In this document: piece after piece, positions 17,625-63,325 of the stretch
How positions within the stretch are numbered: the first letter of the stretch is position 1
Layout of the letters: each line of letters opens with the position of its first letter
Notes under the pieces: model-generated
Seen by the model: only the letters and a program-made list of their open reading frames with translations
What the model was told of the DNA's origin: nothing
Databases searched by the model: none
Program-made: the position numbers and the translations under genes
Source of the DNA: Shigella phage Z31
Reading direction: 5' to 3' (one strand)
Length of the DNA stretch: 64,000 bases
Sequence record: MN655999

Positions 17625-19406
17625 TTAAAGCTGCTTGTCAATATTATTTCGAATATCACCAAGAGTTGTGTAACCGAACTGCTCAGAGTCACTAAAGACT
17701 AAACGTAAAGCACAAGCTGGATGTTCAAGCACATCTGCAAAGCTCTGGAATCCATAGCCATCTACAGCTTTCAGCTTATCGCCATCCCACATAGGTGCTA
17801 CACCACCAAAAGCAGACTTCTTAACACCGCTATCTGTTTTAGGGTCTTTTGCAAGCATAATCTCTTTACCACCAATGCTTGCAAGAGTTGCTTTGACAGC
17901 AAATGCAAAGGTGTCACGAGTCATGTACTGGTAAGTGTAAGAACCTACACCAAACACTACGTTAGAGCTTGCAAAACCCATTTCATACAAACGCTTCAGG
18001 ATTTCGTTTGCACGTTCCAACGTGATAGAGTCACCATAGATAAGGCCAATGTGCTCATCCAGTACCTTAAAGCCTTTAGAGTTGATAGTCCCTCCAAAGA
18101 TGTTATACAGGTTCTTAATAGCTCCATCAATCTCTGCTACAGGACGTGTTACAACGTTTGCAGAACCAACCATATAAGCATTTTTCAACATCACTGTATC
18201 AGCAACTTCAAAGTCTTCTCTGTCAACAACCATCTCGTAGCCTTCTGACAGTAGCCACCCAGCAATACCATAGTTGATGTTTTCAAGCTTCATGTTCAGA
18301 ACAGCATTCAACATTGTGTCGCTGGCTTCCATCTTGCTTAGGTGTTCGTAATAAGCCTTTTTAGCACACTCTAAGTGGATTGCTTTATAGCCTGTGACAA
18401 TATGTACAGGGTCTCCAGAGTCAGGACGAATTACCAGTTTTCCATCACGTTCCATAATCTCTTTACGGAGTTCTGGCAATATGACTGATACAGTTCTCCA
18501 GAAATTATAAGTATCTGAAACAACACTTGCAATACCAGTTGGGTAAGTTTCTGTTAAGAAGCGACGGAAGGTTTGTAACTCACCTTTAAAACGTCTTTCA
18601 TCTTCAATTAACTCATTACCACCTTCCCAAGCAATGTTTGCACACATTACAGAGTGTTCAGTGGCTGGCACAGAACTACCAATATCAGAGATTGGGTAGG
18701 ACTGTCCATAGATGCGTTTAGCTGTATACACAGCAGGGAAGCTGTCAGTTCCTTTAAAGCTGGTTAAGTGACCTACAGCGTTAAATGCGTCATCAGTAAA
18801 GCCAGACATACCACGCATAGCAAAGTCATGGCACTGATAAGGTAAATGCAAGTCGTTGTCACAAGTAAGGTCAGCCCACTTCTTACAGATACGTTTGTAG
18901 TGCAATGCAATAGTTGCAATGGTACAAGCCTTCCAAATCTCAGCAGAGAAAGCATCTTCTAGATACCCCGCTACCCAATGGAAACCTGAAACAGTGTTCT
19001 GGAAGACAATCATTGGTACACGCATAGGGACAACTGTGCCTTCTTCTACAGCATATACTTCAACTGGTAGATAACCTAAGTCGTGGAGTGCTTCCCAATG
19101 TTCTCGACCAATAGCATCTTTGCCCAGAACACCGTTCATGACTTCTAAGATTTCGTCAATTGCTTCTTTTTTGTCACGTTCAAAGAAGGTGGCGTTCCAG
19201 TGGTCTATCAAGTAATCTTTAACAAAACGTTGAATACCAAAAGCTACTACACCGTCAATTGCTAAAGGGCTGTTAAACCATTTATCACTACGTGGTGTTA
19301 GGTTCAGCATAAGATACTGTGTGGCATCTGGATACTGATATATATGTGATGCCTTGTAAGCATCTGCATTAAGGCCTGCTGGTACTGCGTAAAGTGACTT
19401 ACTCAT
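17625..19406 (-). CDS. nicotinamide phosphoribosyltransferase-family enzyme (NAMPT-like; candidate nicotinamide ADP-ribose transferase)
   Basis: NAMPT signature segments AYKASHIYQYP, FKGTDSF, SVPATEHS, IRPDSGDP; 593 aa, longer than typical NAMPT. Confidence 0.85.
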   Translation of the reverse strand: MSKSLYAVPAGLNADAYKASHIYQYPDATQYLMLNLTPRSDKWFNSPLAIDGVVAFGIQRFVKDYLIDHWNATFFERDKKEAIDEILEVMNGVLGKDAIGREHWEALHDLGYLPVEVYAVEEGTVVPMRVPMIVFQNTVSGFHWVAGYLEDAFSAEIWKACTIATIALHYKRICKKWADLTCDNDLHLPYQCHDFAMRGMSGFTDDAFNAVGHLTSFKGTDSFPAVYTAKRIYGQSYPISDIGSSVPATEHSVMCANIAWEGGNELIEDERRFKGELQTFRRFLTETYPTGIASVVSDTYNFWRTVSVILPELRKEIMERDGKLVIRPDSGDPVHIVTGYKAIHLECAKKAYYEHLSKMEASDTMLNAVLNMKLENINYGIAGWLLSEGYEMVVDREDFEVADTVMLKNAYMVGSANVVTRPVAEIDGAIKNLYNIFGGTINSKGFKVLDEHIGLIYGDSITLERANEILKRLYEMGFASSNVVFGVGSYTYQYMTRDTFAFAVKATLASIGGKEIMLAKDPKTDSGVKKSAFGGVAPMWDGDKLKAVDGYGFQSFADVLEHPACALRLVFSDSEQFGYTTLGDIRNNIDKQL

Positions 19407-19420
19407 ATTTTATCTCTCTC

Positions 19421-19912
19421 TTAGTTATGTCTTGCAAACTCACCATGAAGTTCTATTCGCTTTTTAATTACAGCTTCTTTTGCTTCTTCTACCGTTTTAA
19501 ATCTTCCACAAAAGTATTCTTTATGGTAAAGCATGACTCTTGCTTTGTAAAGACCTGTTTGTTTACAAAAACTTACACCCTTCACACCAGTTTTATTGTT
19601 CTTTTGTATACCCCTATTCCTCTGGTTTTGTGACTTTGTGCTAAGTCTTAAGTTCTCCAACTTATTATTAGTTTTATCAAGGTCTATGTGGTCTATCTCA
19701 TATCCACTTGGTATCTCACCCCCAGACATAATCCATGCAATATTATGTGCATAGTACCTCTTCTTATTTATCTGGACTTGGATATAACCCTTCTTAGACC
19801 TTGTGCCAGCCACATTACCAGCAATAGCGGTACTGCAAAGGGTTACTCTCCAAATTAATAAACCTGTATCTGGTTCATATATTAGGTATTTTTCAAAATA
19901 ACCCTTATTCAT
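19421..19912 (-). CDS. HNH homing endonuclease with AP2 DNA-binding domain
   Basis: HNH block YEIDHIDLDKTNNKLENLR; AP2-like KTGVKGVSF...YKARV..GRFKTVEEAKEA. Confidence 0.8.
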   Translation of the reverse strand: MNKGYFEKYLIYEPDTGLLIWRVTLCSTAIAGNVAGTRSKKGYIQVQINKKRYYAHNIAWIMSGGEIPSGYEIDHIDLDKTNNKLENLRLSTKSQNQRNRGIQKNNKTGVKGVSFCKQTGLYKARVMLYHKEYFCGRFKTVEEAKEAVIKKRIELHGEFARHN

Positions 19913-19920
19913 ACTGTTAC

Positions 19921-20820
19921 CTAGTCCAAATTTGCTACAGTAACTTGACCATAATGTGTTAAACCACGGTCTTTAGCTTCCCCTAAAGAGTTTGTAGTGT
20001 AGATGTGGTCAATACCATTGTCAAGAAGGTTTTCAACACCTTTAGAGAAGATACCATGTGTTACATAGAGTTCCACACGTTTTGCACCTGCTTCACGAAG
20101 ATGTTTAGCTGCTTCTATGAAGGTTCGACCACCATCACAGATATCATCAAGAATCATGACAGTTTTATCTGTCAAATCCACATCATCAAGGATTCGCATA
20201 CCAGTAATTTCACCAGTCTTAAGGTTACGTACTTTAGACATTGTGATGTATGGTTTATCCACCTCTTTAGCAGTCTCTTCAGTCTTCTTAGCTGCACCTG
20301 CATCTGGGGCTACTAAGTAATCAACTAGAGGGTCATTCGCATAGTGGACTGCAATCTCCTTTTGGGGGATACTCTGGAAGCAGTTAAACAGGTTATCTGG
20401 TACATAACTGTGAGAGTCAACTGCACAGACTGCATCGAAACCCATTGCATTAATCTGTTGTGCAAACACTTTCAAAGCTGCTGCATCACCTTTAAACATG
20501 TGACGGTCGTAACGCGCATTTGGCAAATAGTAAAAGATGGCAGTCTTCATAGCAAACTTATGAGGTACTAAGTTGTCTACCGCCTCTTTAGCAAGTGCCA
20601 CAGCAAACAATGTATCTTTATCATAACCTTTTACAATCATAATCACATTGTTGATAGATGATGCTGCATAAGCAGTAAAATCAACAAACTCTGGTGAAAA
20701 GTGTCCACCAATCTCACCAGAAGGGAATTGGATGATGTTAAACTCTTCTTCATGAGTCCCTTTAGTTGGTGAATGAACTGTAACACGAATAGATGTCTTC
20801 ATAGTTTTTCTCTCAATCAA
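19921..20820 (-). CDS. ribose-phosphate pyrophosphokinase (Prs)-family enzyme (candidate ADP-ribose pyrophosphokinase)
   Basis: Type I PRTase/PRPP-binding loop VMILDDICDGGRTF; 299 aa. Confidence 0.85.
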   Translation of the reverse strand: MIERKTMKTSIRVTVHSPTKGTHEEEFNIIQFPSGEIGGHFSPEFVDFTAYAASSINNVIMIVKGYDKDTLFAVALAKEAVDNLVPHKFAMKTAIFYYLPNARYDRHMFKGDAAALKVFAQQINAMGFDAVCAVDSHSYVPDNLFNCFQSIPQKEIAVHYANDPLVDYLVAPDAGAAKKTEETAKEVDKPYITMSKVRNLKTGEITGMRILDDVDLTDKTVMILDDICDGGRTFIEAAKHLREAGAKRVELYVTHGIFSKGVENLLDNGIDHIYTTNSLGEAKDRGLTHYGQVTVANLD

Positions 20821-54148: not shown

Positions 54149-62164
<8,016 letters not shown>

Positions 62165-62165
<1 letters not shown>

Positions 62166-62404
62166 TACATTTTTCCTGCTCTTCTAAGTTCGTTGTAAGC
62201 AATTTCCTCTTTATACGACCTCTGAATTTCAAGAAATTGTCTCAATGATAATAAATCAGAGAATGTCATAGCAAAGAGTTGGTCAAGTGTTTCTTTACAC
62301 CCTTCCATACCATAAATAGCAAGCACAAATTTCATCTCGTCTGCTTCTTCATAGGTTGCCTCTACAGCAGCATCAGTTAGTGGTGTCTGTAGAGTGTTAC
62401 CCAT
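62165..62404 (-). CDS. tail assembly chaperone -1 frame extension (fusion partner of 62407-62805)
   Basis: Frame open upstream of its ATG and overlaps 3' end of upstream ORF in -1 frame. Confidence 0.5.
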
Positions 62405-62406
62405 GT

Positions 62407-62805
62407 TTACTGAGAAGTTAGGCTTTTGAAAATGCTTGCTTCGAAAAAACTTCCGAAATTTGCCTCCAGCGCAAATGCTAAGTAATCAATAAATTCACCA
62501 TAGTTTGCTTGGAAGTATGTATCAATATTAAGTGGGAAGTCATCAACAGTTGCCCCTTGAAATAATAGGGTAGCCATTTCTTCAAGGTTAATTTCTTCAA
62601 TTCTGTCAAAACAAGCTTCAACAAGTTCTTTAAATGGAACCATTGGAGCTTCTTTCTTATCTTTATCAGTTAGACTTGATAGCATCTGTGCAAAAGTTGG
62701 AACAACAATTTTACCCAACTTCATAGACATCTTAATACCATCTCTTGCCCCAAGCAGAACGATATTTACTTTCTTACCATTAATTACTCTAGATTCTGTT
62801 TTCAT
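62407..62805 (-). CDS. tail assembly chaperone (G-like)
   Basis: Position between tube and tape measure; slippery heptamer near 3' end. Confidence 0.55.
   Translation of the reverse strand: MKTESRVINGKKVNIVLLGARDGIKMSMKLGKIVVPTFAQMLSSLTDKDKKEAPMVPFKELVEACFDRIEEINLEEMATLLFQGATVDDFPLNIDTYFQANYGEFIDYLAFALEANFGSFFEASIFKSLTSQ
62443..62449 (-). other. candidate -1 programmed ribosomal frameshift site U_UUU_UUC
   Basis: Heptamer in zero frame of 62407-62805, 12 codons before its stop; -1 frame continues into 62165-62404. Confidence 0.5.
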
Positions 62806-62837
62806 TGTGATTCCTTAATACTTTTAAAAGAAACAAA

Positions 62838-62868
62838 AAAGGGGAAGACCTTTTAAAGTCTCCCCCTT
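62838..62868 (-). terminator. intrinsic terminator after tail tube gene
   Basis: GC-rich imperfect hairpin 62841-62866 followed by minus-strand UUUUUGUUUCUUUU. Confidence 0.5.
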
Positions 62869-62878
62869 ATAGGATTTA

Positions 62879-63325
62879 TTAAACACTTGACGCTGGAATT
62901 GTTGAAGTGTAGTCTAGCTTCTCACAACCAAAAATCCAAGTTTTAGAGTTCTGGTCACGACCAAGTTCAATCTGTGGTAATTCCTGCAACCAAGCATTAA
63001 TACCAGTTGCCAGAACAGAGCCTGATGGGTCGTAGATTACGAAGTTAGAAGAGATATCTTCTTCAAGTTCCATATTGTCTTGTTTAGCTTGAATTGCAGA
63101 AAGCATCTGATTAGAGAGAGAAGTCTGCATTAGCTCAATCTCAATAGTACCTGTCTTGTCTGCATTTCTTGTCAGAGCAACCTGACCACCTGCACCTACA
63201 ACTGGTGTAATAAGTGGTGATGTTCTCTGTAGACGTAAGAATGAATCTGGAGCAAAGCCTTCAATAGCAATGCCGTTCCAGCTACACACAACGTCTTTAG
63301 GGGAATATTGCTGATACATAGCCAT
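62879..63325 (-). CDS. tail tube protein (by position)
   Basis: 148 aa; between sheath-like gene and chaperones. Confidence 0.5.
   Translation of the reverse strand: MAMYQQYSPKDVVCSWNGIAIEGFAPDSFLRLQRTSPLITPVVGAGGQVALTRNADKTGTIEIELMQTSLSNQMLSAIQAKQDNMELEEDISSNFVIYDPSGSVLATGINAWLQELPQIELGRDQNSKTWIFGCEKLDYTSTIPASSV

What the first reader, a model, noticed from the sequence alone, without database searches (positions are those of the whole stretch)
62165..62805. Candidate -1 programmed frameshift joining the two tail assembly chaperone ORFs
Seen: the ORF ending at 62407 contains U_UUU_UUC (plus-strand 62443-62449, read on the minus strand) 12 codons before its stop. The -1 frame is open from there through 62165-62404, which would give a fusion of about 210 aa directly upstream of the tape measure gene. 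Established: tailed phages conserve a chaperone pair of this kind made by -1 frameshifting (lambda G/GT, P2 E/E+E').
Basis: partly seen in the sequence, partly recalled or inferred. Interest (0 to 1): 0.5.

Follow-up and report, generated by a model that had tools for sequence, protein, structure and literature searches.

The report
Known tail-chaperone frameshift in Felix O1-like phage

Summary
The in-frame heptamer T_TTT_TTC lies at 62449-62443 on the minus strand, 11 sense codons before the stop of the 132-aa chaperone ORF. The -1 frame is open from 62485 to the stop at 62165, which overlaps the tape measure ATG. The fusion is 213 aa.

In 95 related loci (25 clusters at under 60% protein identity, GC 35-65%), the Phe-Phe is always encoded T_TTT_TTY. 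The -1 frame always runs 76-124 codons further, to about the tape measure start (some starts unlocated). That extension is alignable across all clusters with shared motifs, and usually has no start codon of its own. There is no 3' stimulatory structure in this phage. An SD-like GGAGG lies 13 nt upstream (62467-62463) and is kept by synonymous codon choice in 20 of 25 clusters.

It is not new. The window is a Felixounavirus. Salmonella phage Meda (about 98% identical) carries a joined CDS that equals the fusion I built at this heptamer, and Moogle and Michonne do the same. The frameshift is mentioned in three genome announcements. A 2025 paper reports the conserved GTTTTT motif across Andersonviridae. 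No experimental proof was found. Interest is low.

The parts
62879..63325 (-). Tail tube-like virion structural protein gene (148 aa), upstream neighbour of the chaperone pair
   Evidence: ORF list; phrog_280 virion structural protein and PF11681. It follows the sheath gene as annotated in relatives.
62839..62868 (-). Terminator-like GC hairpin with a T-run, between the tube gene and the chaperone gene (context only)
   Evidence: The consensus scan finds a 13-pair stem followed by TTTTGTTTCT. The same element is annotated as 'terminator' in phage Meda.
62812..62816 (-). Shine-Dalgarno AAGGA, 6 nt before the ATG of ORF1
   Evidence: Read directly from the sequence. A ribosome binding site is annotated at the equivalent place in Moogle and Maleficent.
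62407..62805 (-). ORF1: short tail assembly chaperone (G-like, TAC-N), 132 aa, the zero-frame product
   Evidence: PF21822 Phage_TAC_15 at E 1.2e-19; phrog_1613 tail assembly chaperone at E 8e-49.
62463..62467 (-). SD-like GGAGG, 13 nt 5' of the heptamer; candidate 5' stimulator (inferred)
   Evidence: GAGG lies at exactly -13 in 20 of 25 clusters. GAG before a G-initial codon is used in only 20% of cases in the window's genes and 33% pooled over the loci, giving P of about 1e-6.
62443..62449 (-). Slippery heptamer U_UUU_UUC in the X_XXY_YYZ register
   Evidence: It is invariant as T_TTT_TTY in 95 loci and 25 clusters.
62407..62485 (-). Overlap window in which both the zero frame and the -1 frame are open
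   Evidence: Frame translations. Nucleotide identity to 7 relatives peaks at 0.87-0.89 over 62460-62416, against 0.44-0.74 over the rest of ORF1 upstream of about 62490.
62165..62443 (-). -1 frame extension (T-like domain, 92 codons plus stop), read after the slip. Together with ORF1 residues 1-121 it gives the 213-aa fusion (TAC-NC).
   Evidence: The extension aligns across the 25 clusters; phrog_4963 tail assembly chaperone.
62165..62404 (-). ORF2 as usually annotated (79 aa from an ATG). Its ATG has no SD and lies 2 nt after the ORF1 stop.
   Evidence: It is annotated as a separate CDS in most records.
59937..62165 (-). Tape measure protein gene (742 aa). Its ATG overlaps the stop of the -1 frame (TAATG).
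   Evidence: phrog_4036 at E 0; PF20155 TMP_3; coordinates.

Best explanation
This is the tail assembly chaperone pair of a Felix O1-like myophage, expressed by programmed -1 ribosomal frameshifting.

Most ribosomes translate ORF1 (62805-62407) to its stop and make the 132-aa short chaperone. A minority slip back one base at AG-U_UUU_UUC, when tRNA-Phe occupies the P site on UUU and the A site on UUC. Both tRNAs re-pair with UUU. The ribosome then reads CGA AGC AAG... in the -1 frame, through the ORF1 stop and the nominal ORF2 ATG, to the TAA at 62165. The result is a 213-aa long chaperone that shares its first 121 residues with the short form.

The signal appears to be the heptamer plus an SD-like GGAGG 13 nt upstream, which could pair with the 16S rRNA tail of the elongating ribosome. 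There is no 3' hairpin.

By analogy with lambda gpG/gpGT, the shared N-domain coats the tape measure protein. The rare C-terminal domain recruits the tube protein, so that tube and then sheath polymerise to the measured length. Neither chaperone form ends up in the virion.

Shown here: the sequence anatomy, family membership, conservation of the site, of the frame and of the extension, and identity with deposited frameshift annotations. Inferred: that slippage actually occurs, its efficiency, the role of the SD-like element, and the protein functions.
For: - **Anatomy:**
- **ORF1 family:** PF21822 tail assembly chaperone, 71.5 bits against a cut-off of 22; PHROG tail assembly chaperone hits for both ORFs.
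- **Phage identity:** the window is a Felixounavirus, 99.5% identical to ECP2307.
- **Heptamer conservation:** it is in frame in every relative examined. These include Mooglevirus, Suspvirus, Yersinia P778, Pectobacterium Wc4, Erwinia phiEa21-4 and the Vequintavirinae CR8 and Av-05, which share 26-30% protein identity. It is also in frame in all 80 IMG/VR loci.
- **Codon choice:** there are 25 clusters at under 60% identity spanning GC 0.35-0.65. The chance that the first Phe is TTT in all of them is about 10^-8.8, judged from local codon use.
- **-1 frame:** it stays open for 76-124 codons after the site. It ends within a few to about 50 nt of the tape measure start wherever that start could be located.
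- **Extension:** it aligns across all 25 clusters with shared motifs. Only the window's cluster has an ATG near its start, and that ATG has no SD. Three clusters have no ATG or GTG at all.
- **Nucleotide conservation:** it peaks over the heptamer and the 30 nt after it.
- **SD-like GAGG at -13:** kept in 20 of 25 clusters against codon bias, P about 1e-6. Sharma et al. 2014 search for stimulatory SD-like elements 6-17 nt upstream, and find UUN codons and all-pyrimidine heptamers among the more shift-prone (PMC4066793).
- **Prior annotation:** joined CDS in Meda ('Tape measure chaperone frameshift product'), Moogle and Maleficent. Fusions I built at this heptamer are identical to AXY86324.1, AIW03804.1/YP_009145710.1 and YP_009177317.1.
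- **Publications:** PMC4319497, PMC4591319, PMC5543628, PMC12846349.
Against: - No experimental detection of the fusion in any Felix O1-like phage was found in the searchable literature. The Felix O1 genome and proteome paper does not mention a frameshift.
- There is no stimulatory structure 5-9 nt downstream in this phage. The 60-nt MFE is -3.4 kcal/mol with z +1.2.
- The ORF2 ATG lies 2 nt after the ORF1 stop. Some free 79-aa protein could therefore also be made by termination-reinitiation.
- A T6 run could in principle give the same protein through RNA polymerase slippage.
- The IMG/VR loci were retrieved with a peptide pattern that required Phe-Phe, although not its codons. The clusters are also not strictly independent phylogenetically, so the P values are rough.
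Confidence: 0.86

Rival explanations
1. The same 213-aa fusion is made, but by transcriptional slippage. RNA polymerase adds one extra U on the T6 run. Ribosomes then translate that minority mRNA normally and enter what is the -1 frame of the DNA.
For: A one-base insertion in the run gives exactly the same protein (...FFR...), so conservation of the fusion cannot separate the two mechanisms. This follows from the sequence. The run is longer (T7-T8) in 8 of the 25 clusters. Transcriptional slippage is a recognised recoding route (review PMC5009743).
Against: From my own knowledge, efficient slippage by bacterial RNA polymerase needs runs of about 8-9 or more; this was not tested here. Here the run is 6 in most lineages and has not been lengthened. 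The run is always in the exact X_XXY_YYZ register. An SD-like element at a spacing suited to ribosomal -1 shifting is conserved, and it would have no role in transcription.
Confidence: 0.06
2. There is no recoding. ORF1 and ORF2 are two separate genes. ORF2 is started at its own ATG (62404) by termination-reinitiation after the ORF1 stop, and the heptamer is a by-product of a conserved Phe-Phe.
For: Most GenBank records annotate two separate CDSs. In this genus the ATG lies 2 nt after the ORF1 stop, an arrangement that allows coupling.
Against: There is no SD before the ATG. That ATG is absent in 24 of 25 clusters, and three clusters have no ATG or GTG anywhere in the extension. In phiEa21-4 and Wc4 no ORF2 could be annotated at all. 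Amino-acid conservation in the -1 frame starts right after the heptamer (R-S-K-H-F-Q-K-P and R-x-x-R-Y-W), upstream of the ATG. The codons of the Phe-Phe and the base before it are fixed against local codon bias.
Confidence: 0.04
3. In this particular isolate the slip occurs mainly at the second in-frame heptamer, A_AAU_UUC (62461-62455), four codons upstream. This would give ...EANF-RKFFRSK... instead of ...EANFGSFFRSK...
For: The heptamer is in register and lies inside the window where the -1 frame is open. It arises from a synonymous AAC-to-AAT change, which is also seen in IMG/VR locus L017.
Against: It is not conserved. Nearly all close relatives have AAC TTC, and other genera have other sequences. 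From my own knowledge, re-pairing of tRNA-Asn from AAU to AAA is poor. The SD-like element would lie only 1 nt away, outside the stimulatory range.
Confidence: 0.03

Closest known systems
Frameshifted tape measure chaperone annotated in Felix O1-like phages: Salmonella phage Meda AXY86324.1, Citrobacter phages Moogle AIW03804.1, Michonne YP_009177317.1, Maleficent and Mijalis
   Same: Same genes, same position, same heptamer and same -1 join. Fusions I built at T_TTT_TTC reproduce the deposited proteins exactly. The Meda locus spans 641 nt, like 62805-62165. Published in PMC4319497, PMC4591319 and PMC5543628.
   Different: The window's fusion differs from Meda's by 3 residues, and that exact sequence is not in the protein collection. 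Most Felixounavirus records, including Felix O1 itself, still annotate two separate genes. All of these annotations are predictions.
TAC-N/TAC-NC -1 frameshift of Pakpunavirus Adele and Vandenendeviridae, with the same motif reported in 231 Andersonviridae genomes (PMC12846349, 2025)
   Same: [quoted passage not shown] Felixounavirus belongs to Andersonviridae.
   Different: That paper does not give the heptamer register and does not discuss stimulators.
Phage lambda gpG/gpGT (Levin, Hendrix & Casjens 1993; Xu, Hendrix & Duda 2004, 2013, 2014)
   Same: Two overlapping ORFs between the major tail gene and the tape measure gene. A -1 slip near the end of the first ORF gives a minor long form. 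From my own knowledge, no 3' structure is needed. The functional model is described in PMC5009743.
   Different: The slippery sequence differs (G_GGA_AAG in lambda, from my own knowledge). Lambda has a siphovirus rather than a contractile tail. ORF1 matches no Pfam family other than PF21822 at E up to 0.1. The efficiency here is unknown.
Phage P2 gpE/gpE+E' (Christie et al. 2002, own knowledge)
   Same: A myovirus with a contractile tail, a chaperone pair upstream of the tape measure gene, and a -1 frameshift.
   Different: A different protein family by sequence (no hit). The P2 slip-site sequence was not compared here.
E. coli dnaX -1 frameshift signal
   Same: A slippery heptamer with an SD-like element upstream at a defined spacing. 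SD-like stimulators 6-17 nt upstream are described in PMC4066793.
   Different: From my own knowledge, dnaX also has a strong 3' hairpin and uses A_AAA_AAG. No 3' hairpin is found here. The role of the SD-like element here is inferred only from synonymous-site conservation.

Membership tests
Tail assembly chaperone pair made by programmed frameshift (class of Xu, Hendrix & Duda 2004) | The gene pair lies between the major tail/tube gene and the tape measure gene | tested here: met
   Order on the minus strand is tube 63325-62879, ORF1, ORF2, tape measure 62165-59937.
Tail assembly chaperone pair made by programmed frameshift (class of Xu, Hendrix & Duda 2004) | The second ORF overlaps the end of the first in another frame and lacks its own translation start signals | tested here: met
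   The -1 frame is open from 62485, 25 codons before the ORF1 stop. There is no SD before the ATG at 62404, and that ATG is absent in 24 of 25 related clusters. Caveat: the ATG lies 2 nt after the ORF1 stop, so reinitiation cannot be excluded.
Tail assembly chaperone pair made by programmed frameshift (class of Xu, Hendrix & Duda 2004) | A slippery sequence in the correct register inside the overlap | tested here: met
   U_UUU_UUC at 62449-62443 in the X_XXY_YYZ register.
Tail assembly chaperone pair made by programmed frameshift (class of Xu, Hendrix & Duda 2004) | The frameshift arrangement is conserved among relatives even where sequence has diverged | tested here: met
   All 25 clusters (95 loci) keep T_TTT_TTY and an open -1 frame running to about the tape measure gene.
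Tail assembly chaperone pair made by programmed frameshift (class of Xu, Hendrix & Duda 2004) | Both the short and the long product are made, at a fixed low ratio of long to short | not testable with these tools
   This needs proteomics or a reporter assay. No such data for Felix O1-like phages were found.
Tail assembly chaperone pair made by programmed frameshift (class of Xu, Hendrix & Duda 2004) | Both products are required for tail assembly and are absent from virions | not testable with these tools
   This needs genetics and virion proteomics. The structural proteins that the Felix O1 paper lists in its conclusions were not mapped onto these ORFs here.
Pfam PF21822 Phage_TAC_15 | Score above the curated gathering threshold over most of the model | tested here: met
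   71.5 bits against a cut-off of 22; residues 9-124 match model positions 1-124 of 127.
Sequence families of lambda gpG and P2 gpE | A significant profile match to those families | tested here: not met
   The Pfam scan at E up to 0.1 returned only PF21822 and one chance hit. A sequence search of solved structures returned nothing at E below 0.6. The resemblance is therefore in organisation and presumed function, not in detectable sequence family.
dnaX-type three-part -1 frameshift signal | An SD-like element 6-17 nt 5' of the heptamer | tested here: met
   GGAGG at 62467-62463 with a 13-nt spacer, conserved in 20 of 25 clusters against codon bias. Its function is inferred, not shown.
dnaX-type three-part -1 frameshift signal | A stable hairpin or pseudoknot 5-9 nt 3' of the heptamer | tested here: not met
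   MFE is -3.4 kcal/mol for the 60 nt downstream, z +1.2, and 178 of 200 shuffles fold at least as well. The 50-nt fold gives z +0.7. Rfam has no match. Some distant relatives do have a hairpin (L077 z -3.7, L063 z -2.5).

The most novel reading that the evidence does not exclude
The frameshift signal of this chaperone family may be a purely 5'-assisted one. It would consist of an invariant U_UUU_UUY heptamer plus an SD-like GAGG/GGAGG fixed 13 nt upstream. That element is maintained by synonymous choice of GAG over GAA in 20 of 25 divergent lineages, in genomes that otherwise avoid GAG before G. No 3' structure is needed in the Felix O1 group. I found no description of this in the annotations or papers I could read. 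If true, the ratio of long to short chaperone would be set by an rRNA-mRNA contact, which a single synonymous change could test.
Probability: 0.45. Interest if true: 0.3.

Novelty: already known. Interest (0 to 1): 0.15.

Why it matters
It matters mostly for annotation. Most of the roughly 250 Felixounavirus records, including Felix O1 itself, list two separate small genes, often as 'hypothetical protein'. They should carry one joined CDS plus the short form. Felix O1-like phages are used for Salmonella and E. coli typing, biocontrol and therapy, so a correct tail-assembly gene model is useful for engineering them.

Biologically it adds one more well-conserved example to the G/GT rule. The slip site is invariant across Andersonviridae, Vequintavirinae and many uncultured lineages. 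The conserved SD-like element upstream is a small, testable addition. Nothing here changes current understanding.

Tried and rejected
- **3' stimulatory structure 5-9 nt downstream.** Folding of 50-100 nt shows nothing better than shuffled sequence near the site. The only notable hairpin (62405-62350) starts 37 nt downstream, which is too far. It is only partly kept in Moogle and SUSP2.
- **Rfam scan of 62000-63000 at E up to 10.** Only chance-level hits far below the gathering scores.
- **Sequence search of solved structures with the fusion.** Nothing at E below 0.6.
- **Phage tRNA-Phe that might affect slippage.** There are no tRNA genes in this window.
- **Second heptamer A_AAU_UUC (62461-62455).** Not conserved, so rejected as the functional site.
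- **Two other in-frame heptamers with long -1 extensions.** A_AAG_GGG at 59155-59149 is simply the ribosome binding site of the next gene and is not kept in Moogle. A_AAU_UUG near 19930 reads into a homing-endonuclease-like ORF and looks accidental.
- **Literature.** The Felix O1 genome paper does not mention a frameshift. The paper by Vladimirov et al. 2022 on T4-like chaperones could not be read.
- **Searches not used.** Structure prediction and the large protein searches were not run, because family membership and conservation were already settled by cheaper means.

Full report
**What is there.** On the minus strand the window carries a contractile-tail module. It begins with the end of a sheath gene, followed by a tube-like structural gene (63325-62879). 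A terminator-like hairpin follows (62868-62839). Next come a 132-aa ORF (62805-62407), a 79-aa ORF (62404-62165) and a 742-aa tape measure gene (62165-59937).

ORF1 matches Pfam PF21822 (Phage_TAC_15, 71.5 bits against a cut-off of 22) and PHROG tail assembly chaperone families. ORF2 matches phrog_4963, also named tail assembly chaperone. The large gene matches tape measure families. The DNA is 99.5% identical to Enterobacteria phage ECP2307 and 95-99% identical to about 200 Felixounavirus records. The genus belongs to Ounavirinae, family Andersonviridae.

**Check of the observation.** The sequence reads ...GCG CTG GAG GCA AAT TTC GGA AGT TTT TTC GAA GCA AGC ATT TTC AAA AGC CTA ACT TCT CAG TAA AC ATG GGT... 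The heptamer T_TTT_TTC is at 62449-62443 in the X_XXY_YYZ register. Eleven sense codons follow it before the stop.

The -1 frame is open from 62485 to the TAA at 62167-62165 and includes ORF2. The fusion is 213 aa. The last base of its stop is the first base of the tape measure ATG.

In the window's long ORFs there are 69 in-frame X_XXY_YYZ heptamers in about 18,400 codons. About 0.09 would therefore be expected in a 25-codon overlap. T_TTT_TTC in frame occurs only here. Of 23 Phe-Phe dipeptides, 18 start with TTC and only this one is T_TTT_TTC.

**Comparative evidence.** In GenBank relatives the same in-frame heptamer is present with an open -1 frame running to about the tape measure start. 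It ends exactly at the start in the Felix O1 group and 4 to 66 nt before it in the more distant relatives. This holds for:
- Mooglevirus, Suspvirus, Yersinia phage P778, Pectobacterium phage Wc4 and Erwinia phage phiEa21-4;
- the Vequintavirinae CR8 and Av-05, which share only 26-30% identity with ORF1.

A scan of IMG/VR with the peptide pattern E[AVK]N[FY][GKS][SC]FF returned 80 confirmed loci. The pattern fixes the amino acids but not the codons. Together with the GenBank loci, these form 25 clusters at under 60% protein identity, with GC from 0.35 to 0.65.

Every one encodes the Phe-Phe as T_TTT_TTC or T_TTT_TTT. This includes GC-rich genomes where TTT is only 17-27% of Phe codons. From local codon use, the chance of TTT at the first Phe in all 25 is about 10^-8.8.

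After the site the -1 frame stays open for 76-124 codons. Wherever a long ORF could be found it ends within about 50 nt of that ORF's start. The -1 extension aligns across all clusters. Amino-acid conservation begins directly after the slip site, as R-S-K-H-F-Q-K-P in the Felix group and R-x-x-R-Y-W elsewhere.

Only the window's cluster has an ATG near the beginning of the extension, and that ATG has no Shine-Dalgarno sequence. Three clusters have no ATG or GTG at all. In phiEa21-4 and Wc4 the annotators could not call an ORF2. The extension can therefore only be expressed as a continuation of ORF1.

In some lineages the -1 frame opens only 2-5 codons before the heptamer, and the zero-frame stop can lie as little as 9 codons after it. 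Together these pin the shift to the heptamer. Nucleotide identity to seven relatives peaks at 0.87-0.89 over 62460-62416. It is 0.44-0.74 over the rest of ORF1 upstream of about 62490, and 0.50-0.70 over the extension downstream of 62416, as expected for a recoding site followed by a dual-coding stretch.

**Stimulators.** The 60 nt downstream fold no better than shuffled sequence: -3.4 kcal/mol, z +1.2. A 50-nt fold gives z +0.7. Rfam has nothing.

Upstream, GGAGG lies at 62467-62463, 13 nt before the heptamer. It comes from the codons CTG GAG GCA. GAGG is at exactly this position in 20 of 25 clusters. GAG before a G-initial codon makes up only 20% of such Glu codons in the window's genes and 33% pooled over the loci, giving a binomial or Poisson-binomial P of about 1e-6.

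Sharma et al. 2014 treat SD-like elements 6-17 nt upstream as -1 stimulators in E. coli. They also find UUN codons and homogeneous all-pyrimidine heptamers among the more shift-prone (PMC4066793). I therefore propose a heptamer plus a 5' SD-like signal. The role of the SD-like element is an inference from synonymous-site conservation only.

**Mechanism and function.** The most likely mechanism is tandem slippage of two tRNA-Phe from UUU UUC to U UUU UU, followed by reading of CGA AGC AAG... in the -1 frame. The functional model is taken from lambda gpG/gpGT as summarised in PMC5009743. The shared N-domain binds the tape measure protein. The rare C-domain binds the tube protein and starts its polymerisation. 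Both chaperone forms leave the finished tail. None of this was tested here.

**Rivals.**
- *Transcriptional slippage on the T6 run.* It would give an identical protein, so proteomics cannot exclude it. The short run, the fixed register and the conserved SD-like element argue for the ribosome.
- *Independent translation of ORF2.* This is contradicted by the family-wide lack of start signals and by -1 frame conservation upstream of the ATG. In this genus, however, the stop-ATG spacing of 2 nt leaves room for some extra free C-domain.
- *The second heptamer A_AAU_UUC (62461-62455).* It is peculiar to this isolate and a few others and is not conserved.

**Prior knowledge.** Salmonella phage Meda, a Felixounavirus, carries a joined CDS annotated 'Tape measure chaperone frameshift product' over the equivalent 641 nt. 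Moogle and Maleficent carry joined CDSs too.

Fusions that I built at the heptamer are identical, residue for residue, to AXY86324.1 (Meda), AIW03804.1/YP_009145710.1 (Moogle) and YP_009177317.1/AYR00813.1 (Michonne/Maleficent). The window's own fusion differs from Meda's by three residues and is not in the collection.

The frameshift is mentioned in the Moogle, Michonne and Mijalis genome announcements (PMC4319497, PMC4591319, PMC5543628). A December 2025 paper on Pseudomonas phage Adele reports an invariant GTTTTT motif and an uninterrupted -1 frame in Vandenendeviridae, and the same motif in 231 Andersonviridae genomes (PMC12846349). That paper does not discuss stimulators.

The Felix O1 genome paper does not mention the frameshift. 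Most records still annotate two genes. I found no experimental demonstration for this phage group.

**Verdict.** The feature is already known as a prediction, so interest is low.

Noticed in passing
window 62839-62868 (minus strand): A strong terminator-like hairpin (13 pairs plus a T-run) sits between the tube gene and the chaperone gene. Chaperone and tape measure transcription may therefore depend on read-through, or be attenuated relative to sheath and tube. The element is annotated as a terminator in Meda and several other records.
   Followed up: partly
window 62455-62461 (minus strand): A second in-frame heptamer, A_AAU_UUC, lies four codons before the main one, inside the window where the -1 frame is open. 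It was created by a synonymous AAC-to-AAT change. It is seen in this isolate and in IMG/VR locus L017, but not in most relatives.
   Followed up: partly
window 62350-62405 (minus strand): A hairpin pairs CAUGGGU with ACCUAUG and CUCUACAG with CUGUAGAG. It buries the nominal ORF2 ATG. The 100-nt fold is -24.5 kcal/mol, z -2.2, with 3 of 200 shuffles as good. It could suppress independent initiation at ORF2. By eye, the inner 8-bp stem appears to keep 7 of its 8 pairs in Moogle and SUSP2; no covariation test was done.
   Followed up: partly
window 59149-59155 (minus strand): An in-frame A_AAG_GGG lies five codons before the stop of the 265-aa gene after the tape measure gene, and its -1 frame reads into the next gene (113 aa). 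It is the ribosome binding site of that next gene. In Moogle it is replaced by AAGAAAGGAG, so it is most likely accidental.
   Followed up: yes
window about 19380-19990 (minus strand): The gene 20820-19921 ends ...GCA AAT TTG GAC TAG with an in-frame A_AAU_UUG. Its -1 frame runs 168 codons into the downstream ORF, which looks like an HNH/AP2-type homing endonuclease (motifs IDHIDLDKTNN and GVKGV). This is probably a chance juxtaposition after endonuclease insertion.
   Followed up: no
whole window, long ORFs: Phe-Phe dipeptides avoid T-runs: 18 of 23 start with TTC, although TTT is 61% of Phe codons overall. GAG before a G-initial codon is only 20% of such Glu codons. Both fit general avoidance of slippery runs and of internal SD-like sequences in this phage.
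   Followed up: partly
L002 (PV390658.1, Escherichia phage vB_EcoM_P54): This record is 99.3% identical to the window, so it is a Felixounavirus. Its taxonomy line nevertheless says Straboviridae; Tevenvirinae; Tequatrovirus, which is an apparent misclassification in the deposited record.
   Followed up: no
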